DNA of 58,385 nt, filler included, from Sphacelaria rigidula (lineage: Eukaryota), in NCBI GenBank assembly GCA_964200075.2. It is 9 parts of 9 records of this genome, joined end to end, with 100 filler letters (N's around TTAATTAATTAA, not from the genome) between each part and the next. Parts side by side here need not be neighbours in the genome. Positions count along the whole stretch, not along the records: positions 6,500 to 12,898 come from CAXNAA020020317.1; 8 more parts are not named here. One strand, 5' to 3'. The first letter of the stretch is position 1, and each line of letters opens with the position of its first letter. The position numbers and the translations under genes are program-made. Positions 6,400-56,624 of this stretch are shown here, one piece after another. Under the pieces are notes generated by a model that made no database searches, was not told the origin of the DNA, and was given only the letters and a program-made list of their open reading frames with translations.

Positions 6400-6499
6400 N
6401 NNNNNNNNNNNNNNNNNNNNNNNNNNNNNNNNNNNNNNNNNNNTTAATTAATTAANNNNNNNNNNNNNNNNNNNNNNNNNNNNNNNNNNNNNNNNNNNN
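6400..6499. other. Artificial scaffold linker N44-TTAATTAATTAA-N44 (also 12899-12998, 19398-19497, 25896-25995, 32394-32493, 38892-38991, 45390-45489, 51888-51987)
   Basis: Eight identical 100-bp spacers with an all-frame stop cassette separate fragments of 6399, 6399, 6399 and then six of 6398 bp. Confidence 0.98.
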
Positions 6500-7782
6500 C
6501 GTGGAAACGAAGCTAGTCCGGCGAAAACCCGGCGCGCTCCGTCCCGAATCTGTAGGGATGCCGGGTCAATGGTCTCATGATTACCTTACGCAACATCATG
6601 AGTACACACACACCCTTCGTGAAAACCACTGTAATAGGTGTTAGCAGGTGATACTGTTCCGAGGTGAAGCTGGCGGTCGAAGGGTTTATCCTAAGTTTTT
6701 CGTGTTGGTAAATACATGCAAGCAGATTGGCAGAGGATATCCTCGCGTGTCGCTTCCGAGATGCAATACTGAACAAGCACGCGCAAACCGGTTTCTCGTC
6801 CCCCTTACCTGTCACACCCGTGGAAGGTGTTGAGGGCAGAACTCGTATGTAGCGGGCTCAAGGTCCAGGCGGTAACGGCAAACAGTACAGTGACTTTCGG
6901 ATTATCCCGGAACTGAAGGCGGACATATCGCCATTGTCACAAATATGCCGGAGCTTTTGCTGTCCATATTTAGTGTTCCGATCAGTTGGGCGTAGTCGGC
7001 AGGTTGATGCGGGCACACTTGGCCCATCCTTTCCTCAACCAGGTTGCAGTACAGACAGTTTTGTAGTGTACTGGTCTGTACTGCTGGGTTTCTGGTTGAC
7101 GTTTTGGGAATGTTTTGTTTTCGCCTCTAAGGTGAAGCAGTCGACGCACAGACCACGAGAGCCTTTCGGTGCGCCAACGAAAGATAGTCAACCCACCAGC
7201 ACAGCAAAGAGCTACCGAAGAAATGCCGTAGTCTGATAACCTCTCACCAGACATGCCGGGCCAGGCCAGAATGGATAATCATGGACTTGGGCAAGCTATC
7301 CTCTCCGCAACTACTGATGTAACTGGTGTATAAGTGTGCGTGAGAGCACTCCGCGTTTTTAAACCGTTGCAGGTTGCAGTCACGATCAAGACGCAACAGC
7401 GGAAATCGGACGGCCAAAACCAAGGCAACTCCCGAAATTCTGTGGGAAGACGACAACAAAAATTCTTGAACCCTGTGGCAAAGATCTTGTGAACCAACAG
7501 TCCTCCAGGACCTGCTGTCAGTCGGTGTCCGTCGGGCCGCGTGGGCTCAAATCTAGGCTCCATTTCGGAACCAAAGTTCCCGCGATGGTCATATTCCACG
7601 GAAGTAATTTCGGAACATAATTTCCTGGGACGGTCGGCTGCTGTGCAACGCGCGAGCCACAAGCATCGGTTCACAAGGCAAGGGCAATTGGGTCGTAGAA
7701 ACAAGGAGGGAATATATCTGCATAGAGGAGTTGACTGCGCTTTCATCATCATTCTGATTCGTGGTTGACATACTAGGGGACC

Positions 7783-10700
7783 ATGGCCTCTGCCGCTGTT
7801 GACCCTCGGACGCCCACCATGACCACAGCGTTGGAGGTTATGAAAGGATCGCTCGCGGCTGTGCTGGGCTTCCCCATAGGCAAGAGCACCATCGGTGGGC
7901 GGATTAGCGAAGGCAATAAGGGCCGCATCACGGTGGTGAGTAGTAAAGGCAGTTCTCGTGTATGTAGCAATCTGTGCGGAGTAATTGCATGCTCATCGGT
8001 GTGGCAAATCACAGGCCATGTGGTTGCTCCTGGCTCTGGAGGAGCAGTGCGATGGTCTTCGCAGTTCCAGAGTGTGCTGTCGGCAATAAGAATAGTTCCG
8101 TTTTCCATTCACCCGGTTTGGTATAGCTGGGTGAGCTTGTCTTCGGGTGTGCGAGGATCACGAGCTTTTACAGAGAGACAGCGCACTCAGTGTTCCCCAG
8201 CTATGTGTAGCCACCACCTGAAGTAGTGCCGGTTTCTATGACAGGGTACAGCAAACTAGTACGCTGCACAGGGCGTCTGTTCAGTGGGCATCAGGGGTAC
8301 AGTTCAGTTGTTCGTGCGGAAGGCGCGTTGTGGTCGGCTTCCTGCGCTGTGTTGAGCCGTAGAGGCACGTGTGCGGACTCTCTGCAGGAGAAGCAGCTGC
8401 TGCTGCTGCCGGCAGCAGAATATCAAGTGTAAACCCATGTGGAAGGTGCTCTGTGCGCAGCTGTCTAGTGGCACAGCGTAGCAAATGTACGTTTAGCGTG
8501 TTTTTTCACCTCGTTCGTCCCTCCGCGTTCCAGTCCATCTGATCTGCCCTCACCTCTTCTGCAACGGTACGGTTCAGACATCGACCTCGCCTCGGCCGTC
8601 TCATGCGATGTTTTGATGATGTGGATAACCTATGTTGATGCATCTCATCTACTGCGCGACAGTTCACTGGAAAGGCGGCGCCGACGTCGGCGCAAACGCA
8701 AGCGGTCATTGATTACGCCAATGACCTCATATCAAAAGACCTACCGTGCTCCCGGTTTACCATGCTCAGGAGCGAAGCAGAGAGCACCTACGGCACGGCC
8801 ATGTGAGACTGGAAAAAACGTGGTCGAGGAGCCCCGCACTAGTTGAATCATCTCGATGAGATGCGATCGATGTCTTCTCACCACTTACTTCGCGTACGTC
8901 ATCAGCAGACGACCCGTGGCATCTAACCTGTTGGGCCGCAGGCGGATCTACAATGTAGCATACACTGTTTCGTGAATATGGGGGCACTTCCCGTATGTGC
9001 CGGAGTCGGGAGTTGCCCCATTTCGGCCGTCTACTTGGTTATTTTGTCATTTTTCACTCACGGCAAACATGTGCAATGGTGATTCGAAAAGCACAAATGT
9101 CCAGTAATAAAGGGGGGCAGGATATATGACAATGCCACCTGTCACGTGAGGTGCAAGACGTCCCCGTAGTCTCAGCTGCTTCGAGAGTGATTGCGATGGC
9201 GAGCTGTCTTATGGCTGGTCCAACCGTCTTCATGCATTGGCATCTTTGTTGAACATATTAATATCTTGTCTTTTTCCATAACTTTCAGGTATGACAAAGC
9301 CGAAGTTCCGGCACATGTGACGGAGCTGAGCATGCTGTATATCGAAGGCGTTGTGCTTCACAGCGTTCAGCACCAATGCCTACCGTCGACTGGGGGCATC
9401 GGCAAGATCACCGTTACAAAGGTACGCGCGAGTGCGTCATGTTTAGTCTTTGGGGTAAACGCGAAAAAATCGGAAGAATGGGACAACGTTTTATCGACCC
9501 TTTGACTTTGACGCACTTGGGGAATCTTTGCTGCAAGCACGTGAGAATCACGTCACGAGAATGCACAGTTTTCTCGCATACATGCAAACGACTGGAAACC
9601 CTCATGATCAAGGAGGATGAGTGCAATATTCCATGGCGCTACGTTTTGCGAGGGCCGGGGACGACCCTTGTGCACCTCGAACAACCCGCCAGCATGTCCG
9701 TGAAGCACGACCCCAAAATGTGTGGACAGAGCTCTACGTACGCTCAACCGCGCAGCATGACGAGAAGTCCCGGGCATGGTTCGTTCTTGCCGTGTTGCTG
9801 TGGTAACCGTGGAATCCTCGACATCGTACTCCCCGAAGTACCGATATACCATGCCTACTTGTCAACCCCTGCGTCCTTCTTCGCTGTGTCTCATTCGTCT
9901 TGCCAGCAAAAATTCCGGGAAAGTAAGCAGGAATTGGAGGTGCAATTCGACGTAGAACCTGCGGAGTCGACGGGTGTAACAGAATCAAATGGCGGGACGG
10001 TGCCGCCTTGCCCGCAGTGCACCCCTCCCCCTGCGGACGCTATAGCGCTCTTGAACTCCAGTGAGGTTCGGGCTGTGGCCAGCGAGGCGAGCAGTAATGG
10101 GGGGGGGACAGAAGGTGCGGAGGGCGGAGACGGAGGCGACGGTCAAAAAGTGACGCCTTGGGAAGTAGAGGTGAGGGGAGCGTGCCCTGTTTTCTGTTCT
10201 CATTGTCATCGCATGCGATGGTGATATTGCTGCTGTTGCTGTTGGAACAGTTGACCGCGGGTTCTGTCACCATCATTCGACATTGTGATCAGGCTAGACA
10301 AATGTGGCAAGACAAGTGTCGTTACAATCGAGACTTTCGTGGCTCTACCCGAAACTGATCTGTGTTCTGCCATCGTTCCATATTTTTTTATCGCCACATA
10401 CCCTGCGTGATCACCATGGGAGCAGGGAACGACACGTACTTGTAGAGTTGTGTTATCTCATGGTCTGCAAAACGTGTGCTGCACCTATGAGAGAGAGAAT
10501 CCATGGCTTCTGCAGCCCCTCTCGGGCAGAAAAGTCGTGTGAAACGTGTGGCTACTGAAGCGTTGAATACGGGGCGTTTGGAGGGAGGAGAGGTTTGGTA
10601 AAATATGTCACGACCAGTAGCATTTCATTTGCCTGAGTAGAGCGGAGTGCAGATCTTGAATGACTTGCGGTCGGCCAGTACACAGGGGGCACCTGTTCCA

Positions 10701-11215
10701 TTTTGCTGCGGCCTGTGCGTGAAAAAAAAAATTAAGGTGCGGATATGGTCAACGGGTGCGTGTCTTTTGTGATTATTTCTATGTTGCCCATGATGACATC
10801 TCTACTTTCTCCCCTACTGGTAGCGTGGGGTTTCGCCCTGTTTTTTGCTCAAATTATCTGTATACCTCTGTTCGTTGGATGCATTCGCTTTTTTAACGGC
10901 AGCAGTGCTCTGGCATGCCTATCTTCTGAATCGCCATGCTTCTCGCTCGAAGAATAAGTTGCAGGACACTATTATGTCTGACTGCTCGAAAGGGTTAACC
11001 CGCTTTTGCCCCCCTGTTCTCCCCCCTTCATCTTCCCCTCTCCATCACCGCCGCCGAAGGCCGACGGGGAGGTTGACTACGAGAAATTGGTGAAGTCTTT
11101 CGGTTCGTCGCTGATAACGGAGGACCTGATCGCTAGAGTTGAGCGAGTGACAGGCAGAAGAGCTCACCGATTCTTGCGACGAGGGCTTTTCTTTTCTCAC
11201 CGAGATCTTACAAAG
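7783..11215 (+). CDS. WARS: Tryptophanyl-tRNA synthetase (eukaryotic/archaeal type) with N-terminal AlaX-like domain; 5 exons seen, 3' part missing from fragment
   Basis: Exons 7783-7935, 8663-8802, 9289-9421, 9907-10170 and 11060-11215 all have GT..AG borders and matching phases (0,2,0,0). Spliced product: [29 protein letters not shown]...[16 protein letters not shown]...[11 protein letters not shown]...[19 protein letters not shown]...[29 protein letters not shown]...[65 protein letters not shown](E/D)V, VDYxKLxxxFG and HxFLRRGxFFSHRD are hallmark eukaryotic TrpRS motifs. Confidence 0.93.
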
Positions 11216-13497
11216 GTATACTGTATATTTTTTGTAGCTCCACTTCTAACCCGTTTGAGAGCCAGGCTTACTTCTTCCGAACAAGAACGCCGACTGATAC
11301 CTTGGGATGGTAACCTCAGCGTGGTAACCTCGACGCTATTGCTGAGTAGTTGTCCTCTTCTCGTTTGCACGGGCACCATCCCTGATGAAAACGCATGCCG
11401 TGTATTTTGTGGCCTCTAAGCCCTGGCTCGGGTATCCCGATTCACTGAGGACTAGCTTCCACGCCTGGTTAGTCTAACTGATGTACCAACCGTCAGTCAC
11501 GGCGGAGAGTTGCGAGTTCGAATCCACAAAGATATGGCTCTTCCAGACTGAATATAGTTTCAGCCGATGAGGAAGCGTGAGGACGCGAGTCATTTGTTTG
11601 ATTGTCGCGCAGTCACTCATCCCGCAGGGATCCAGCCGTGGTCACATGATTCTGGTAGCAAAGAATAATCGACGAGCGGGGTCGATGCTGGGGGGGAAGG
11701 AGTATTAGTTACGGGATAAATGAGATGGTTGATCCCTTTGAGGCTTCGGACTCGTCCAAGGGAAGGAGAAGGGTTGAAAAATCTGACGTAAAAAAAGAAG
11801 AATATTACACAAGTCGGTTTTTTGTTCCGAAATGTGTAAAACGGTCGATTTGGGCTTGGACTTGTTTCATCTGAGGTCCAAGGGTTTCAGTGGAAGTGTA
11901 GATTGAGACGTACAGACTACAGACGAGTAGTGTTCGCGAAATCATATCTTCATTTGTCGACGGTCTGTTTTTGTGAAACGTGATGTCCTTCACCGACACT
12001 CGTGGTGGTTTTTCCCTTCCATTTGGGAGTGTCCACAATTCATCATGCACAAATATGAGTTACTTATTTTTCCTGAACTCCTTATGAAGTGATGCCAATC
12101 GACACTGGAAAAGATGTGTATATGTTGAAGAAATTCCTCCCTGAGATCTTGCGCGAGATTTGAAGACCTTTGCAACATACAGATGTATGGTATTCAGTGT
12201 CAGTTAGCGTTAGCTCACAGATATTAGCTATGTACGAGAAATAGAGAAGTGGCAAATGAATATGGTTTCAATAACACCCTCGTGTATCGATGTGTGTTTC
12301 TGCGCACGATTCTCCATGGTTTTCAGAAGGCGTGCTCGGTGTCTCCCTGCTCCCCCCTCATCTTCCCTTTCAAGGGTTGTCGTCGGTTTGCAACGACGCT
12401 GTAAAACGCACCACTCATTGCATAAGCAAAGCAACCAGAATACCTGGGTTTTTTTTTTCTTGTGTTTCCTCTTGCGGTAACCATGATGGTGGTTGATCTA
12501 GATCATATTGTGTGGGGTAGTAGAACCTCACTTTCGCGCACAGCGGATGATCATACTATGTAGTGTTCAACCCTTAGACAGCGAGCGTCGCCTCCGAACA
12601 GTTTCATAGGCTGGCAGTCCGGAGACATTCAGGGGTTTCCAGTGGTCGGAGGGTGTGGTTTTTGAGGTGGCGGGGGGGGGGGGTCTGTCCGCAAAAGAGC
12701 CAAAAATATCACCAAGTCAACCATGTGTGTTAGGAAGTTTCCCGTGGAAAATGATGAGCCGTGCACGAGGCCCGAGAGGCGCGGGATGCCCATTTGACCG
12801 ATCACGGTCGTCAAAATGAGCACGTTCTTCCGGCTCGGATAGACAAGTCATCCTACAATAGGGGGGGGGGGGATTTTTGGGCCATTGTTTCTCGGAAANN
12901 NNNNNNNNNNNNNNNNNNNNNNNNNNNNNNNNNNNNNNNNNNTTAATTAATTAANNNNNNNNNNNNNNNNNNNNNNNNNNNNNNNNNNNNNNNNNNNNGC
13001 TCTTCAAAGATATGCTCTACAGAACCTGCGCACCGGAGACTGAAAAACGCTAATAGTCTACCCAAATTTGGGTGCACAGGGTACGATTCTTCAAACTACC
13101 TAGATGTGGTAAATGCCTAACCCAAGACACCCTTGGGGAACTGCCCAGAGCCTAGATTTGGACGAAGCGCCCAGACTGCGCGTCTCATGTATGTCACGAC
13201 AATGTGTTGTCCCATGTTTACGCCTCCGCCGTGTGGGCATTTGACGTTTTTGATCCCTGATGTGTAAATGCTGCCTGCGTTATGCAATTTTTTCGAGCTT
13301 CCGCTTGACAAGCCACTTCCATTCTACCCGTGCCCATGAATTCTCGAGTCATCACGTGTAAAAAAAGTCACCGGCCGCGGGCGAATTGACATCTTGAGCG
13401 TGCTAATTGCGAAGTTTGGAAAATGCAAAATCGAGAGAGAGGAAGAAGTACATGAAAGTTCCCTTGATGTCGGCTCCCAATCGAACAAACAACACAG

Positions 13498-19070: not shown

Positions 19071-19732
19071 TCTGTATCGTATGCACTGGGGCAACAACCG
19101 AAAGGCGTGCGGAAACCTTGCAGCCGTCGAGAGTGCCGCTGGTGCAGTTAGTTGCGCAAAACACAGCTACCGTCAACAATGTGCATCGACTCAGCAGCAA
19201 GCTTTAGAAACCCGAAAATAACGATCTGTCTCTTCTTATTTTTTATTCTGGTAATGTGTCTGGTAAGGAATAGCCCACGTCTGTGACCACGGGTTCGCGA
19301 GATCGGACTAATGTGCGGAAATAATAATAAATAATAATAATTTGTTTCAAGCACTCCACTGCCGCCTCCTTGGGTCCAGAGTTTTTTTTTTTTTCTTNNN
19401 NNNNNNNNNNNNNNNNNNNNNNNNNNNNNNNNNNNNNNNNNTTAATTAATTAANNNNNNNNNNNNNNNNNNNNNNNNNNNNNNNNNNNNNNNNNNNNCCC
19501 CCCCCCCTTCCCCCCCTAATCTCCGGCTTCCTCCATCTCGAAAGGGACGCGTGGTCAACGGTCAAACGATCAAGGTGAGTAACAAGTGAGCACCCCCCCC
19601 CCCCCCTGATCTCTGGCCGTGTTAGTATTGCCGTGTATATATATATACTGGTAGCCAGTATATGGGATTTCTACAGCAGAGACTACTGGGAAATCCTGGT
19701 TTTGCCCAATTGATATATGAACGAGCCTGGTC

Positions 19733-19850
19733 GGGCGAAAACCCGGCGTGCTCTGTCCCGGCTTTGCAGGGATGCGAGGCCAGTGGTCATGTGACTATGG
19801 CATGCAAGATAATGAGTACACCCCCCTTCCCTGCCCCCTGCCCCCCCTCG
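19733..19850 (+). mobile_element. Short retroposon 3'-end family B; copies ~6517-6616, ~42586-42692, ~45553-45660
   Basis: ggcgaaaa(c/t)ccggcg(c/t)gctccgtc...gatgcgaggtcaa(t/c)ggtc...ga(c/t)tatg(g/a)catgcaagat.atgagtacaccccc occurs in four different fragments. Confidence 0.85.
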
Positions 19851-22264
19851 CACCATGATGACCTGCAGGTACTGGTGGTTGATCACAAGGGAAGCTCCAG
19901 GGCGGTGGCCATAGGACGTCTCAAGGTCGAAACACGTCCGATGATTATGCTGGAGTTCGAAAGTGAGGACGCGTCTGCATTCATCGGAATCGAGCTGCAT
20001 GTGACACAGTTCAACACCCGTACACTAAACACCGCTCCCCCTCCCCCCTGGATGATACCTCTGAGTGATGACTTTTCGGTGCGGGGACGTTCGCATCATA
20101 CCGATACCCTGAAGACAGTGCTGTACCGCGGTGGGTTACATATCACCCCCCAACATAGATGCTCCGTCTCGAAAGGGATGCGTGGTCAACGGTCAAACGA
20201 CTAAGGCAAGCACCAAATGAGTACCCCCCCCCTCCCCCGCTCCGATATAGGCGGCGAAAATAGGACGGGGATAAGATATGTAAAAGGTTTTTGTGTAACG
20301 TATGGAAGAAACGAAATGAGCACCCAAATGTTGGAGGTGTCTCTATCAGGAGTAGGAACGGTGCTCCATCTCGAAAAGTATGCGTGGTCAATGGTCAAAC
20401 GACTAAGGCAAGCAAAAAGTGAGTACGCCCGCCCCTCCCCCCCCTCCCCTCCGAGTATAACGTCCGTGGGTGATGAATTTTTCGGCGTACTCTGTTCGAT
20501 ACTATCTGACACCAGCAGATGAATAGTGATACGGCCTCTTCAAGACGATGTGTCGTTCGCGCCTCTCAAGAGCGTGTAGCGGTCTCCCTTATCAAACTTG
20601 TTTTTTTTCATTTTTCATGTATCTTCTAGCCCTCTCTTGTCGATCACCGTACTCGGTCTGCAACAGGTTTCTCAATACTCCTGCTGGACACTCGATGGAT
20701 GAAACCTGGCCTAGTTGAGTAGGACACCAGGTCGATCTTGCGAGAACATCGTATTTATCAAAGTCTTGAACCACTGTTCTAGAAACACCTTCTGGAAACC
20801 TTCCAGGGAACACTCGGAAACTTCCCTCAAAATATTCCTTAGCTACTGTTCTGGAACCTCCGTCTGGAAATTTCTCAGAAAACACGAGGGAACCACTCTC
20901 AGGATATGCCGCGGCTACATGTGAATCTATCAAAGTCGCTACAATGGATGAAAAATACCACTTTTGCTCTCGGAACGTCGCCTTTCGTTTTCTATTATTT
21001 TCGGGAGATGGAAGGTGGAATCTTCGTGTTCGAAACCCAAGCACATAGATCTTACTCCCTTATTTCGAAAAAAAACGAAATGCTGGACGACGATGAAGGC
21101 CTGTGAATGGTCGACTATTATACAATTCCTCACCCTTCCCGTCCCATGACGTACTTGTACGTTGTCGATATACCACAGTAGTGTAAACTCAGTCAGCAAT
21201 TATCTTTCGCGGCCGATGTACCGTGTAGAGAACCTTACCCGGACATACTTACTAAGGCGTACCGTCAGGCGGGGTCTTATCAGAAGTGATTATCACTTTT
21301 CAAGAAATCAGTTTTGTGAAAAACGACCGATGATTGGTTGCTGCGATACCACCCCCTCCAAAAAGGGCCAAAAAATAACTTTTGTAAAAGTGATTTTGTG
21401 ACACCTCGAACGGGAACATACAACATCCCGTTGACAGGTGCATAACCGAAGTCTTGACAGACAAGTCAACACAATCAAACGTAAACCTAAGGGTTGCATC
21501 ACCCTCTCAAACCAAAACACACCGTTCCATTCATTGCTGCTCATCAGCTGAGCACGCTGTGCGTGACCTTGTTCAAATCGGTTCAGAATTCAATGAGAAA
21601 TGATGATTTGCGTGAGACGCGCGCACAACACACGCTCAAAAACAGTCAGCAACAGCACGTTTTCGGTTGCTAGTTGACACGCACGCTGCCGCCTTTCATC
21701 TAATACTGGACGGATTTCCGTCAAGCAAAGGCTATCGTGTGTAGATGATTAAGGGCTAGCGCTTGAGCTAATGCGCGTGAGTGGTGAATATCTATCCGTC
21801 TGTATTCGTGGCTAGGTGTGTCGGCGCTATGTTACCTCTTTGCGTCTTGTCCGCAGCAGTACAGACATTTTGGACTAACGGCCACTTCCAGAACCGCGGC
21901 ATTTTTTACCTGTGCGCAGATCTGGGCTTCGATCCGAACAAAACTGCCTGTCGATAAGACACAGCACTGGTGGGGGCAATCACTTCTCCAAAAGTGATTT
22001 TGAAAATTGATAATCATTTCTGATAAGACGCCGCCTCAGGGGGGAGTAATATATATATATATATATATATTTACAACTAGGTACGAGTGTGGTTATGCAT
22101 GCGCAAGACCTTTTCCATTAAAGCCATGTCGCGGAGGCCGGTCATTTTTCATTTTTCATTTTTCATTTTTTTTTATTTCTTTTTTATATTATTATTTTTA
22201 ATTATTTTCTTTTCTTAATCTACTCTGTTGTTCTGTTCTACCTTTTCTGTTTCTTCTTTTCCTT

Positions 22265-27345: not shown

Positions 27346-29248
27346 CGATCGATTGTTGCACGATAACTGATGCCCCATGAATCCAGCCGTGGTCACATCA
27401 TGGACGTACGCGAGACAAAATAAAAGTGAAGCACTCGCTCGAGGGAGGGGAAAGAACAAAGAAAACAAGGAAAGTAGAACAGACTGACGAAGTAGACTAA
27501 GGAATCAAGACAAAACAAATCAAATCAAAACAAAATAAATAAGAACAAAATAAGAGTTGCACTTGAAGAACCCATTGGAGACCAATGTTATTGAAGTGTG
27601 CCTGCCTCGATTGGACTTTCGAGCAGTGGTGTCGGCACACTGTAAGAGTAGAAGGATAGTGTTACGACAGGATTATAGATGTTTCGAGCCTCGTCTTGCG
27701 CAAAAAAAAAACATTCTCCACTTTGAGGCGTCAATTTCCAGCACCAATTCAATGAACGGTCTCGAAAGCACATGACGAGCACTGCTGGTCACACCGCTTG
27801 ACAATGTTTCCACCCACGATGAAGCTCATAGTGAGTGCGTGGGGTTGTGTAACACACCGTTGAACTTTTTCTTCTGTGCCATCAAACCCCCACCCCCATC
27901 CCCCTCCCCCCACCCCTTCCATTATTCCATTATTGCAGGGTCACCTGGAAATAAGATATCTTTCCCAAACGAACGGCAACGACAGGAACGTTGGGGCCCT
28001 CACCAACGTATCTCTACATACTGTTCATGCACTTGCCCGGGTTTGATACGTCGGAGTCTAGATGCTTGATTGTACTTGCTGAAACACACACAGTAACGAC
28101 AGATCTTCGAGCACTCTTCCTTTTCGTGAGAAAGCTCCGGGTCTTGGAATAGGTAGGGTTCATGTGTCCAAAAGGGGGGGGGGGGGCGGAGGCTGTGAGA
28201 TGCATTCCAGCAATTTCTGCCTGATGTTTGCGCCTGTCGCAAAAATGCGCAGGCGCGTCGCGTACGCGGTCATCCTCCAACGCCTTCGGAATAGAAAGGG
28301 TATCGCATGTGTTCAGCTAGAACGTGGGAATTTCTAGAGAGGGGTGAATCTTCGTGTATGCTTGATGCTCAGGAATCTCCCCTCCCCCCGTGCCTCCTCT
28401 CGTTCCTCCGGTTTCCCACGCACCCGCGGTTGATTCCACCGTACACGACTACAGAGGTGGCGTCCCGCCTGTTCTTCGCGGACGACCGCGATGGCGAGAA
28501 GCTGACGATGGAGAAGTTCAGCACGTTCGTGCAGATCTTGCAGCAGGAGGCGCTCGTGATGCAGTTCCATCAGTGGGACAGGCGGGGAGACGGGACGCTC
28601 TCGGCGACAGATTTCGCCAAGTTTCTCGCCACCAAGGTGAGAGCGACCGGAAGAGCAAGGCGTATACGAAACGCACGAGGCACGAGGGCCCTCAAGAAAG
28701 TTGCAGAGCAGGGCAGAGATTATTGACCGAGTGAAGAACTGAAGCTGCCTGTGGAGGGATGGGGACGGGATGCCTCGCGCGTGATGCCGGAGAGCGGCAA
28801 GGCCGAACAGCACACGCGTGTATTGTTTCTGCCTGCTGACGACAACTTGGCCGTTTCTCGCTCTGTCTCTCTTCCTCAGCGGTGTGCTTTACTGTGCGCA
28901 CGCATGATTATCCCTGAGTTCGCATTGTATGTGGCATGTATAGGATGGTATTCCCGAAAGCAGGGGGTGCATTGTGACCCGCCCCATGTACCCGAATAAT
29001 ATGGCCCATGCTTGTCGAGCGAACGACAGGGCAAAGCCTCCTTTCTTGGAATCAGTTCTTGTGTCATCCTCCGCAGCGCGTCAATCAGCTCGAGCATACT
29101 TTTCCACACACAACGCGTCGGCCAATTCCGCTGCAACAGAACAGCTCAACGTCGTACTCTTCGCGCTTTGCAACAGATAACCTCGGACCGAGCGCTGTAC
29201 AAGGAGTATCTCGAGCGGGCGAAGTCAGAGAAGATAGCTCAGCTGAAG
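26410..29248 (+). CDS. MICU: MICU-like mitochondrial calcium uptake EF-hand protein (internal exons)
   Basis: Exons 26410-26503, 26977-27118, 28455-28636 and 29177-29248 have phases 0,1,0. Product: FWAMVDVDGDGLISYEEFMLFRTLIAIPKRK/LAIAFRMFDRDDSGTIDWFEFEAFMNVLKRQTNVG...Q/VASRLFFADDRDGEKLTMEKFSTFVQILQQEALVMQFHQWDRRGDGTLSATDFAKFL/... This follows the MICU1 layout [54 protein letters not shown]. The first acceptor is uncertain by a few nt. Confidence 0.87.
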
Positions 29249-56028: not shown

Positions 56029-56624
56029 CTGGGGGACTCAAATTCGTGAACTCAAAATGGGGGGAGCGTTTTGTTGTACGGGCGGTACAGTATCGCAGAT
56101 TTGTGAAACGGTTCTGTACACAGACGATCATTTTTTGCATGAGTGTAGTACTGCGTACTCGTGCATGAAGCCAAAGAGCAGGCAGGCGGTAAGCAATCCT
56201 TCGAGTACANNNNNNNNNNGACACTTCATCAGCACGGTACATGATAATGCCGTGTGGTAGTACATGATGTCACAGTCGGTATTGCGAGAACAGAGAACAA
56301 ACAGTGCGCCAGTAGAGTTCAGTAGTGCAGTGCCGCACATCATCCCTTAAGCACAGCGACGACAGCTAGGAGAGTACAGTAGCGTTCGGCAGAGTGACAC
56401 ATATGGCAGCGTAGCGCAGTATAAAATATTACTATCGCCGTAGGGTATGGCGTCAGCACTTATTATCCGCTTGTAAACCCCGTGCGAAGTTGCTTCAGCA
56501 GCTGGGGGCGGCAGTACGCACGCCCTGTGCTGTCACGAGACTGTCTTCTACTGCCGTTGCAAAAATATCAAACGCCTCGTACTCTAGCAATGTACGTCAA
56601 TGCACGTACGTTACCTCAAAAAAA

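What the first reader, a model, noticed from the sequence alone, without database searches (positions are those of the whole stretch)
7783..10170. TrpRS carries an N-terminal archaeal AlaX-S-like domain spread over four exons
Seen in sequence: four phase-consistent exons upstream of the TrpRS core give ~160 aa that are invisible in the ORF track as one protein. By eye this aligns end to end with the remembered Pyrococcus AlaX-S editing protein: [14 protein letters not shown] vs [22 protein letters not shown] vs [22 protein letters not shown] vs [40 protein letters not shown] vs [26 protein letters not shown]. Established: an AlaX-TrpRS architecture is described in Plasmodium. Inference: its presence in an apparent brown alga suggests a wider stramenopile/alveolate fusion, which I do not know to be described in this lineage.
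Basis: partly seen in the sequence, partly recalled or inferred. Interest (0 to 1): 0.8.

Follow-up and report, generated by a model that had tools for sequence, protein, structure and literature searches.

The report
Brown-alga TrpRS with dead AlaX domain
This is the front half of a brown alga's ordinary cytosolic tryptophanyl-tRNA synthetase gene, whose first four exons encode an AlaX-type editing-fold domain that has lost its zinc site, an arrangement already described in malaria parasites and already noted once in a brown alga.

Summary
Exons 7783-7935, 8663-8802, 9289-9421, 9907-10170 and 11060-11215 (+) have GT..AG borders, fit in phase and give 282 aa without a stop. Intron-free contigs of three runs from two studies join them at exactly these borders. 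The DNA-like run does not.

Exon 4 alone holds the end of the AlaX-like domain, a linker and the TrpRS start (VTPWEVE). Exon 5 is TrpRS (E 3.9e-16).

The spliced product scores 132 bits against a profile of 49 free-standing AlaX-S-like proteins. The best of 1000 shuffles scores 3.3 bits. A model of an 83%-identical relative superposes on Pyrococcus AlaX-S (TM 0.89, rmsd 1.4 A).

The four zinc ligands are replaced by T, E, V and C, so editing activity is unlikely.

The same fusion is annotated in Ectocarpus, Undaria and Ascophyllum (67-70% identical), in other ochrophytes, in Cafeteria, and in apicomplexans, Vitrella and Amoebophrya. All fused domains lie on one side of one tree branch (93/95).

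Khan et al. 2011 and 2013 describe the fusion and mention the Ectocarpus case. It is already known, so interest is low.

The rest of the TrpRS gene is not in the window, which is a composite of about 6.4-kb pieces.

The parts
7660..7782 (+). 5' untranslated leader of the TrpRS mRNA
   Evidence: Intron-free contigs begin at 7671 (X1), 7665 (X2) and 7660 (X8). There is no ATG in 7660-7782, and an in-frame TAG lies at 7774-7776.
7783..7935 (+). Exon 1 coding part (aa 1-51). AlaX-like domain helix 1 and first strands. The HxxxH zinc motif is replaced by T..E (TTALE, aa 14-18).
   Evidence: The joint 7934|8662 (cut +1) is seen in 3 runs.
7936..8662 (+). Intron 1 (727 nt, GT..AG)
   Evidence: table 5. 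It is absent from the contigs of X1, X2 and X8 and present in the X5 contig.
8663..8802 (+). Exon 2 (aa 52-98, phase 0 in, 2 out). AlaX-like domain, R..AE..YG motif.
   Evidence: R, A, E and D of this motif are at least 90% conserved in 78 aligned relatives.
8803..9288 (+). Intron 2 (486 nt, GT..AG)
9289..9421 (+). Exon 3 (aa 98-142). AlaX-like domain. The CxxxH zinc motif is replaced by V..C (VQHQC, aa 124-128).
9422..9906 (+). Intron 3 (485 nt, GT..AG)
9907..10170 (+). Exon 4 (aa 143-230). It holds the last strands of the AlaX-like domain (9907-9954), an acidic Gly/Pro-rich linker (9955-10149; net charge -7) and the first TrpRS residues VTPWEVE (10150-10170). The two parts are therefore fused within a single exon.
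   Evidence: The same junction is seen in relatives P0107, P0011 and P0021.
10171..11059 (+). Intron 4 (889 nt, GT..AG)
11060..11215 (+). Exon 5 (aa 231-282). N-terminal part of the eukaryote-type TrpRS core (..[18 protein letters not shown]..).
   Evidence: 19 PDB TrpRS sequences match at E<=0.001, the best at 3.9e-16. It is 96% identical to Laminaria digitata and Undaria TrpRS.
11216..12898 (+). Start of intron 5 (GTATAC...), rich in high-copy repeats and cut off by the end of this piece of the window. Exons 6 onward are not in the window.
   Evidence: In X1, X2 and X8 a loose end behind 11215 reads on as ILDLYESGNK, which is TrpRS exon 6. That 30-mer is absent from the window. tblastn with full-length fusions finds only exons 1-5. 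X5 depth is 3,500-48,000 in the repeats against 62 over the exons.

Best explanation
Bases 7660-12898 (+) hold the promoter-proximal half of the single-polypeptide cytosolic tryptophanyl-tRNA synthetase gene of a brown alga.

Shown: exons 1-4 encode a ~155-aa domain with the fold and end-to-end sequence of type-I AlaX (AlaX-S), followed by a ~65-aa acidic linker. Exon 4 runs directly into the eukaryote-type TrpRS core, exon 5 continues it, and the mRNA goes on for about 1.9 kb beyond the window piece.

Shown: the domain belongs to the same lineage as the 'AXD' of apicomplexan TrpRS. Its four zinc ligands are replaced by T, E, V and C.

Inferred, by analogy with Plasmodium falciparum TrpRS: it does not deacylate tRNA. 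It serves as an appended tRNA-binding helper, one flexibly tethered copy on each subunit of the TrpRS dimer, that aids tRNA-Trp binding and charging.

My confidence in the identity and architecture is about 0.97. My confidence in the helper function is about 0.55.
For: Gene structure and splicing. Four GT..AG joints appear in contigs of 3 runs from 2 studies and none in the DNA-like run X5.

Fusion: the exon 4 ORF spans both parts. Exon 5 matches TrpRS at E 3.9e-16. The contigs run on behind 11215 into ILDLYESGNK, which matches the exon 5|6 junction of Laminaria P0107.

AlaX-S homology:
- Relative P0001 (83% identical to the window product) matches PDB 1v4p at E 6.7e-14, end to end.
- The window product scores 132 bits against a profile of 49 free-standing proteins, with 3.3 bits for the best of 1000 shuffles.
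- The AlphaFold model of P0001 has pLDDT 92.2. Its top Foldseek match is 1wnu_B, with TM 0.89 by target, rmsd 1.4 A and 146 columns.

Lost zinc site:
- The window has T/E/V/C at the positions of His9, His13, Cys116 and His120 (residue numbers from PMC3680381; alignments).
- 0 of 16 TrpRS-fused rows keep the C...H pair, against 38 of 62 other rows.
- 0 of the 9 proteins with a tRNA-synt_1b hit reach Pfam tRNA_SAD, against 24 of the other 62 scanned.

Same lineage as the apicomplexan AXD: 35 fused and 34 free-standing domains are separated by one branch, with support 93/95 and one change in 92% of 200 bootstrap trees.

Function: for Pf-WRS the N-terminal region is reported as required for tRNA-Trp binding and aminoacylation, and the protein is not processed (PMC3680381 abstract and discussion passages).
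Against: The TrpRS catalytic exons (HIGH, KMSKS) are not in the window. Their presence rests on a 30-nt loose end, on the contig lengths, and on orthologues of 593-609 aa.

The helper function is by analogy only. Khan 2013 itself cites work on Cryptosporidium TrpRS in which the extension was dispensable; I could not read that paper.

The domain here is about neutral (net -1) and the linker is acidic (net -7). The N-terminal regions of all 6 named or unnamed fusions that I computed are also net negative, at -6 to -15. That is not what a simple electrostatic RNA-binding arm looks like.

The structure model was made from relative P0001, not from the window's own product. Its alignment contained AlaX-S-like sequences, so it leans towards that fold.
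Confidence: 0.75

Rival explanations
1. The appended domain is still an editing enzyme. It would hydrolyse mischarged tRNA (Ser- or Gly-tRNA-Ala in trans, or a mischarged tRNA-Trp in cis), using a rebuilt metal site or a metal-free mechanism.
For: The domain has been kept across ochrophytes, Cafeteria and alveolates. Several pocket-region residues stay at least 90% conserved across fused and free-standing members (R75, A78, E79, D88, T120 in P0001 numbering). Brown algae share T/E/Q-or-V/C at the ligand positions, and Glu and Cys can bind metal.
Against: All four canonical zinc ligands are replaced here. No two distant fused lineages share the same replacements (TEVC, HEAY, VLTV, ERVM, DHNV, DSNV and others), which looks like relaxed constraint at that site. 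0 of 16 fused rows keep CxxxH. Khan 2013 states that no mischarging of tRNA-Trp by TrpRS is reported.
Confidence: 0.1
2. The domain is neither an editor nor a tRNA binder. It would be a protein-interaction or regulatory module (for example docking to other synthetases or to a partner), or a largely dispensable relic kept because it is harmless.
For: The charge is neutral to acidic. The extension is reported dispensable in Cryptosporidium TrpRS, as cited in PMC3680381. At least one dinoflagellate TrpRS (Cladocopium, 473 aa) shows no such domain, so the domain can be lost.
Against: It is retained with 46-70% identity across ochrophytes, following the species tree, and the fold is predicted with confidence, which argues for purifying selection. 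In P. falciparum the region was needed for activity. No partner is known.
Confidence: 0.13
3. Artefact: two neighbouring genes (a free-standing AlaX-like gene and TrpRS) wrongly read as one, or a truncated pseudogene copy of the 5' end of TrpRS.
For: TrpRS exons 6 onward are nowhere in the 58-kb window.
Against: Exon 4 is one open frame across the junction. Contigs of three runs carry exons 1-5 with 0-1 other letters and continue about 1.9 kb into TrpRS sequence. The missing exons are explained by the window being a composite of ~6.4-kb pieces separated by N44-TTAATTAATTAA-N44 spacers. Full-length orthologues of 593-609 aa exist in three brown algae.
Confidence: 0.02

Closest known systems
Plasmodium falciparum cytosolic TrpRS (Pf-WRS) with N-terminal AlaX-like domain 'AXD' (Khan et al. 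2013, PMC3680381; Khan et al. 2011, PMC3240968)
   Same: The order of parts is the same: AlaX-S-like domain of ~155 aa, a flexible linker of ~65-70 aa, then a eukaryote-type TrpRS. Both have lost the HxxxH and CxxxH zinc motifs. The domains fall on the same side of the tree branch that separates fused from free-standing forms.
   Different: Only 28% identity over the N-terminal 280 aa to the P. ovale protein. The replacement residues differ (T/E/V/C here; D/S/N/V there). The host is a free-living photosynthetic stramenopile, whereas the papers call the fusion parasite- or alveolate-specific apart from one alga. No biochemistry exists for any stramenopile copy.
Ectocarpus siliculosus 'Tryptophan--tRNA ligase' (P0182, 609 aa), and Undaria pinnatifida (P0179, 596 aa) and Ascophyllum nodosum (P0183, 593 aa) TrpRS
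   Same: These are orthologues. They are 67-70% identical over residues 4-282 of the window product. They have the same domain order and the same T/E/(Q or V)/C at the zinc positions.
   Different: The window's species branches outside the Undaria-Ectocarpus-Ascophyllum group but inside Discosporangium (100/95 and 98/84). The source names call these proteins only TrpRS and do not mention the extra domain.
Pyrococcus horikoshii AlaX-S (PH0574; PDB 1v4p, 1v7o, 1wnu, 1wxo), a free-standing trans-editing deacylase for Ser-tRNA-Ala
   Same: Same fold and length, alignable end to end at ~30% identity. E 6.7e-14, TM 0.89, rmsd 1.4 A.
   Different: AlaX-S is free-standing and binds zinc through His9, His13, Cys116 and His120. 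Here the domain is fused to TrpRS and all four ligands are replaced. It does not reach Pfam tRNA_SAD or the NCBIfam AlaXM cut-off.
WHEP domain of human and other metazoan TrpRS
   Same: An N-terminal appended domain on a eukaryote-type TrpRS, described in PMC3680381 as playing roles in RNA binding.
   Different: The fold is unrelated (helix-turn-helix) and there is no homology. The resemblance is analogy only.

Membership tests
AlaX-S / type-I AlaX (AlaRS-ThrRS editing fold) | End-to-end sequence homology to the ~155-aa AlaX-S domain | tested here: met
   The window product scores 132 bits, E 7e-40, over profile positions 11-164 of 165, with 3.3 bits for the best of 1000 shuffles. Relative P0001 matches 1v4p at E 6.7e-14.
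AlaX-S / type-I AlaX (AlaRS-ThrRS editing fold) | AlaX-S three-dimensional fold | tested here: met
   The model of relative P0001 has pLDDT 92.2. The six best Foldseek chains are P. horikoshii AlaX-S or a design built on it, with TM 0.87-0.89 by target and rmsd 1.4-1.8 A. The model is of an 83%-identical relative, not of the window product itself.
AlaX-S / type-I AlaX (AlaRS-ThrRS editing fold) | Zinc-binding HxxxH and CxxxH motifs | tested here: not met
   The window has T..E and V..C at these positions. No curated model is reached: Pfam finds 0 families and NCBIfam AlaXM scores 24.9 bits against a cut-off of 300.
AlaX-S / type-I AlaX (AlaRS-ThrRS editing fold) | Free-standing protein acting in trans | tested here: not met
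   It is fused to TrpRS within exon 4 and in the spliced contigs.
AlaX-S / type-I AlaX (AlaRS-ThrRS editing fold) | Deacylation of Ser-tRNA-Ala | not testable with these tools
   This needs an enzyme assay.
AXD-TrpRS fusion (apicomplexan-type cytosolic TrpRS) | One polypeptide: AlaX-like domain, linker, eukaryote-type TrpRS | tested here: met
   Only the first ~60 TrpRS residues are in the window. The rest is inferred from the contigs running on behind 11215 and from orthologues of 593-609 aa.
AXD-TrpRS fusion (apicomplexan-type cytosolic TrpRS) | The appended domain shares ancestry with the AXD of apicomplexan TrpRS, not a separate capture of an AlaX gene | tested here: met
   35 fused and 34 free-standing rows are split by one branch, 93/95. 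The root is not inferred, so a single origin is consistent with the tree, not proven by it.
AXD-TrpRS fusion (apicomplexan-type cytosolic TrpRS) | The N-terminal region contributes to tRNA-Trp binding and charging | not testable with these tools
   This is reported only for P. falciparum (PMC3680381).
Eukaryote/archaeal-type TrpRS (class Ic, Pfam tRNA-synt_1b) | Catalytic core with HIGH and KMSKS motifs | tested here: inconclusive
   These exons lie beyond the end of the window piece. No match was found anywhere in the window. The part that is present, exon 5, matches 19 PDB TrpRS sequences.

The most novel reading that the evidence does not exclude
The AlaX-like-TrpRS fusion arose once, before stramenopiles and alveolates diverged, lost its zinc site early, and has been inherited vertically since. 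On this reading it is not a parasite adaptation. It is a rare genomic change shared by these two lineages, with secondary losses (for example in core dinoflagellates), and could be used as a marker for the branching order inside SAR.
Probability: 0.45. Interest if true: 0.45.

Novelty: already known. Interest (0 to 1): 0.2.

Why it matters
For this genome the finding fixes the gene model. The TrpRS gene starts at 7783, and its first four exons look like nothing when read singly.

More widely, two papers present the fusion as nearly confined to parasitic alveolates, 'barring one alga'. The survey here finds it in free-living lineages: brown algae, Chrysoparadoxa, Tribonema, Nannochloropsis, Cafeteria and Vitrella. 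The parasitoid Amoebophrya has it too. In every fused copy that I aligned the zinc site is already degenerate.

That weakens the idea of a pathogen-specific adaptation. It makes an old, vertically inherited, non-editing accessory domain the simpler reading.

This is a modest correction of the known range. It is not a new kind of system.

Tried and rejected
- Single exons: Pfam on the five exon peptides gave nothing relevant. PDB sequence searches with exons 1, 2 and 3 gave 0 hits, and exon 4 gave 4 chance hits with no AlaX.
- Pfam on relative P0001 gave 0 families.
- Own genome: none is held. I therefore could not look for a second TrpRS, a free-standing AlaX, or exons 6 onward.
- The look-up of sequencing runs: no RNA holder is listed. 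The kinds of X1-X4 are guesses.
I re-sent it on 6500-12898.
- Search for TrpRS exons 6 onward: motif scan, tblastn with 7, 4 and 3 full-length or partial fusions, and the 30-mer loose end with up to 3 mismatches. Nothing was found. I first considered an intron longer than 47 kb or a misjoin, then rejected both once the spacers showed that the window is a composite.
- Pfam on 98 ORFs of at least 110 aa elsewhere in the window gave no TrpRS part.
- ESM Atlas with P0001 residues 1-150 returned only prokaryotic AlaX/tRNA_SAD clusters at 0.90-0.92 and gave no information on the fusion's range.
- Earlier scan notes near this place: none.
- Merritt et al. 2011 (PMC3066001) is not held. What I say of Cryptosporidium is second-hand from PMC3680381.
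- Literature searches: 'alax'+'ectocarpus' gave 1 paper, 'alax'+'stramenopile' 2 (not opened; judged irrelevant from titles and abstract starts), 'alax'+'alveolate' 3, and 'tryptophanyl-tRNA synthetase'+'brown alga' 5. From the search listings, only the two Khan papers appear to deal with the fusion; I opened no others.
- The quick tree split the fused label 5 times. That was only because N-terminal fragments had been labelled 'not fused', so I replaced it with the careful tree.
Full report
**What is in the sequence**

Exons 2-5 are preceded by AG; exon 1 begins at the ATG. Each is followed by GT. Their phases fit, and together they give 846 bases, or 282 codons, without a stop.

The ATG at 7783 is the first in the transcribed leader. 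An in-frame TAG lies three codons upstream of it.

Exon 4 matters most. In one uninterrupted frame it holds three things:
- the last strands of the AlaX-like domain ([14 protein letters not shown]),
- a Gly/Pro/acid-rich linker,
- the sequence VTPWEVE, with which eukaryote-type TrpRS cores begin.

Exon 5 matches 19 solved TrpRS sequences, the best at E 3.9e-16. The fusion can therefore be read from the DNA without trusting any splice.

**Splicing is confirmed**

I laid the contigs of four public runs on 6500-12898. X1 and X2 come from one study and X8 from a second; their kind is only guessed. In each of these three runs, one contig (2909, 2886 and 1834 nt) joins the exons at exactly the predicted borders. 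All four skipped parts are GT..AG, and the listed pieces have 0-1 other letters.

Run X5 holds the whole stretch as an unspliced 5133-nt contig and shows none of the four joints.

The spliced contigs begin at 7660-7671. Behind 11215 they run on with letters that translate, in frame, to ILDLYESGNK. That matches the exon 5|6 junction seen in a Laminaria digitata protein fragment (P0107...HRDLT|QILDLYEAGKKFYLYTGRGPSS). In X1 about 1.9 kb of contig follows exon 5, which is enough for the rest of a TrpRS and a 3' UTR.

**Why the rest of TrpRS is missing from the window**

No HIGH, KMSKS or other core exon occurs anywhere in the 58 kb, on either strand. The 30-mer that follows exon 5 in the mRNA is also absent.

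The explanation is the make-up of the window. About every 6,499 bases it is interrupted by 44 N, then TTAATTAATTAA, then 44 N. The window is thus a string of ~6.4-kb pieces that need not be neighbours in the genome. The piece holding this gene ends at 12898, inside intron 5. That intron is full of high-copy repeats: X5 depth is 3,500-48,000 there against 62 over the exons.

**What the N-terminal domain is**

Single exons are too short to be recognised, which is why the domain does not show up when the exons are read one at a time.

A database search with exon 3 returned P0001. This is a 192-aa protein from an unnamed assembly in which exons 1-4 are already joined at the same places. It is 83% identical to the window product.

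- P0001 matches Pyrococcus horikoshii AlaX-S (PDB 1v4p, 1v7o) at E 6.7e-14 over nearly the whole length of both.
- I built a profile from 49 free-standing AlaX-S-like proteins, with none of the fused ones among them. The window's own spliced product scores 132 bits on it (E 7e-40, residues 7-158). The best of 1000 shuffles scores 3.3 bits.
- An AlphaFold model of P0001 with a 78-row alignment has mean pLDDT 92.2.
- The six best PDB fold matches are AlaX-S chains or a design built on that scaffold, with TM 0.87-0.89 by target and rmsd 1.4-1.8 A. AlaRS editing domains, AlaX-M and ThrRS editing domains follow.

**The catalytic site is gone**

AlaX-S binds zinc through His9, His13, Cys116 and His120 (numbers as given in PMC3680381). 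The window has Thr, Glu, Val and Cys at these places.

- In the 78-row alignment, 0 of 16 rows that carry a TrpRS part keep the Cys...His pair, against 38 of 62 other rows.
- I scanned 71 proteins with Pfam. None of the 9 with a tRNA-synt_1b domain reaches tRNA_SAD, while 24 of the other 62 do.
- The replacements differ between distant fused lineages: TEQC in three brown algae, HEAY in Tribonema, VLTV in Nannochloropsis, ERVM in Cafeteria, DHNV in Vitrella and DSNV in Plasmodium ovale.

That pattern looks like loss of constraint at this site. It does not look like a rebuilt site.

**Who has it**

A search of 1.84 billion representatives with P0001 found only 156 proteins at E<=0.001.

Source names show the fusion in the following:
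- Brown algae, full length or nearly so: Ectocarpus siliculosus (609 aa, named only 'Tryptophan--tRNA ligase'), E. fasciculatus, Undaria pinnatifida (596 aa), Ascophyllum nodosum (593 aa), Discosporangium.
- Brown algae, fragments: Laminaria and Hapterophycus.
- Other ochrophytes: Chrysoparadoxa, Tribonema, Nannochloropsis, and Phaeothamnion (N-terminal fragment).
- The heterotrophic stramenopile Cafeteria.
- Alveolates: Vitrella, two Amoebophrya strains, Lankesteria, Neospora, Plasmodium, Theileria and Babesia.

One search listed the 120 proteins most similar to exon 5. Of these, 57 have at least 200 residues before the GRGPSS motif, and 52 of those 57 carry the domain. One named dinoflagellate TrpRS (Cladocopium, 473 aa) does not.

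**The organism**

The window product is 70% identical to the Undaria protein, 68% to Ascophyllum, 67% to Ectocarpus, 59% to Discosporangium, 56% to Chrysoparadoxa, 52% to Tribonema, 46% to Nannochloropsis, 39% to Vitrella, 32% to Cafeteria and 28% to P. ovale.

**Tree of the domain**

I built a careful tree of the domain. I chose the rows by hand: 34 fused rows plus the window, and 34 of the 49 free-standing rows. I left out fragments, near-duplicates and very long branches.

One branch separates all 35 fused from all 34 free-standing domains. Its support is 93/95, and 92% of 200 bootstrap trees need only one change. Inside the fused side there are three starred groups: alveolates, a group with Cafeteria, and ochrophytes.

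The window is sister to (Undaria,(Ectocarpus,Ascophyllum)) at 100/95. Discosporangium, Chrysoparadoxa and Tribonema follow outward, as I recall the accepted species order to be; no call checked that order.

The root is not inferred. The alignment was fitted to the free-standing profile. A single origin is therefore consistent with the tree, not proven by it.

**What is in print**

I read passages of Khan et al. 2013 (PMC3680381). The paper describes the Pf-WRS AlaX-like domain (residues 1-155) and its 72-residue linker. It reports the loss of HxxxH and CxxxH, and that the N-terminal region is needed for tRNA-Trp binding and aminoacylation.

[quoted passage not shown] Khan et al. 2011 (PMC3240968, passages) say 'barring one alga'.

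Four full-text searches turned up no other paper on the fusion in stramenopiles.

Both the kind and its occurrence in a brown alga are thus already known. What the survey here adds is that the fusion is the usual cytosolic TrpRS of many free-living stramenopiles and alveolates, not a parasite peculiarity.

**How it most likely works**

Shown: there is one polypeptide consisting of an AlaX-S fold without its zinc ligands, an acidic flexible linker, and TrpRS.

Inferred: the domain no longer deacylates. As reported for P. falciparum, it would act as a tethered accessory that helps the dimeric enzyme bind and charge tRNA-Trp.

Three points count against this being settled. The domain is about neutral and the linker is acidic (net -1 and -7). 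The Cryptosporidium extension was reported dispensable, though I have that only second-hand. No stramenopile enzyme has been assayed.

The rivals, in order, are a protein-interaction or relic role, residual editing, and an annotation artefact. The data contradict the artefact.

Earlier notes of this scan record other TrpRS enzymes with degenerate editing-fold domains: YbaK-like in tiny-genome bacteria and ProXp-ala-like in giant viruses. I did not test those notes. They suggest that TrpRS repeatedly recruits disabled editing folds.

**Verdict**

The feature is an orthologue of an already described architecture. Interest is low (0.2).

The boldest reading still open is a single ancient fusion shared by stramenopiles and alveolates, which could serve as a rare genomic marker.

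Noticed in passing
Whole window; e.g. 6400-6499 and 12899-12998: The window is interrupted eight times, about every 6,499 bases, by 44 N + TTAATTAATTAA + 44 N. It is therefore a string of ~6.4-kb pieces that need not be adjacent in the genome. Genes are cut at piece ends, as TrpRS is at 12898. A separate 10-N run lies at 56210-56219.
   Followed up: partly
window 7248-7541: A second transcript lies just upstream. Contigs of 1730, 1676 and 1686 nt (X1, X2, X8) cover 7248 to about 7490-7540 and then run off to other sequence before 7248. On the minus strand 7247-7246 reads GT, so this looks like the first exon of a divergently transcribed gene. It would share a ~120-bp promoter gap (7541-7660) with TrpRS.
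   Followed up: partly
window 6500-6713, 11422-11849 and 12278-12898: These are very high-copy repeats. Summed contig depth in the DNA-like run X5 is 3,500 to 218,000 there, against 62 for the single-copy exons. Several repeat-type joints are seen in X5, plus one in X1 (11651|12846).
   Followed up: no
window 19626-20201 (+) and 28295-28723 (+): In other pieces of the window, an ORF carries a 36-aa match to type II 3-dehydroquinate synthase (PF01959, E 1.8e-7), and another ORF has a weak EF-hand match (E 6e-4).
   Followed up: no
Database proteins P0016, P0022, P0023, P0060, P0064, P0149 and others: There is a family of 240-300-aa free-standing AlaX-S-like proteins with a C-terminal extension that often ends in a Y..GF.A motif. 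Many members keep CxxxH, but the Copromyxa member does not. It occurs in Amoebozoa (Protostelium, Copromyxa). One JGI record (P0060) names such a protein 'tryptophanyl-tRNA synthetase' although it has no TrpRS part. That is probably a name carried over from apicomplexan TrpRS.
   Followed up: partly
Database protein P0291 (Cladocopium goreaui, 473 aa): This dinoflagellate TrpRS has 143 residues before GRGPSS and no AlaX-like domain by either local profile. The parasitoid dinoflagellate relative Amoebophrya does have the domain. This points to a loss or an incomplete gene model.
   Followed up: no
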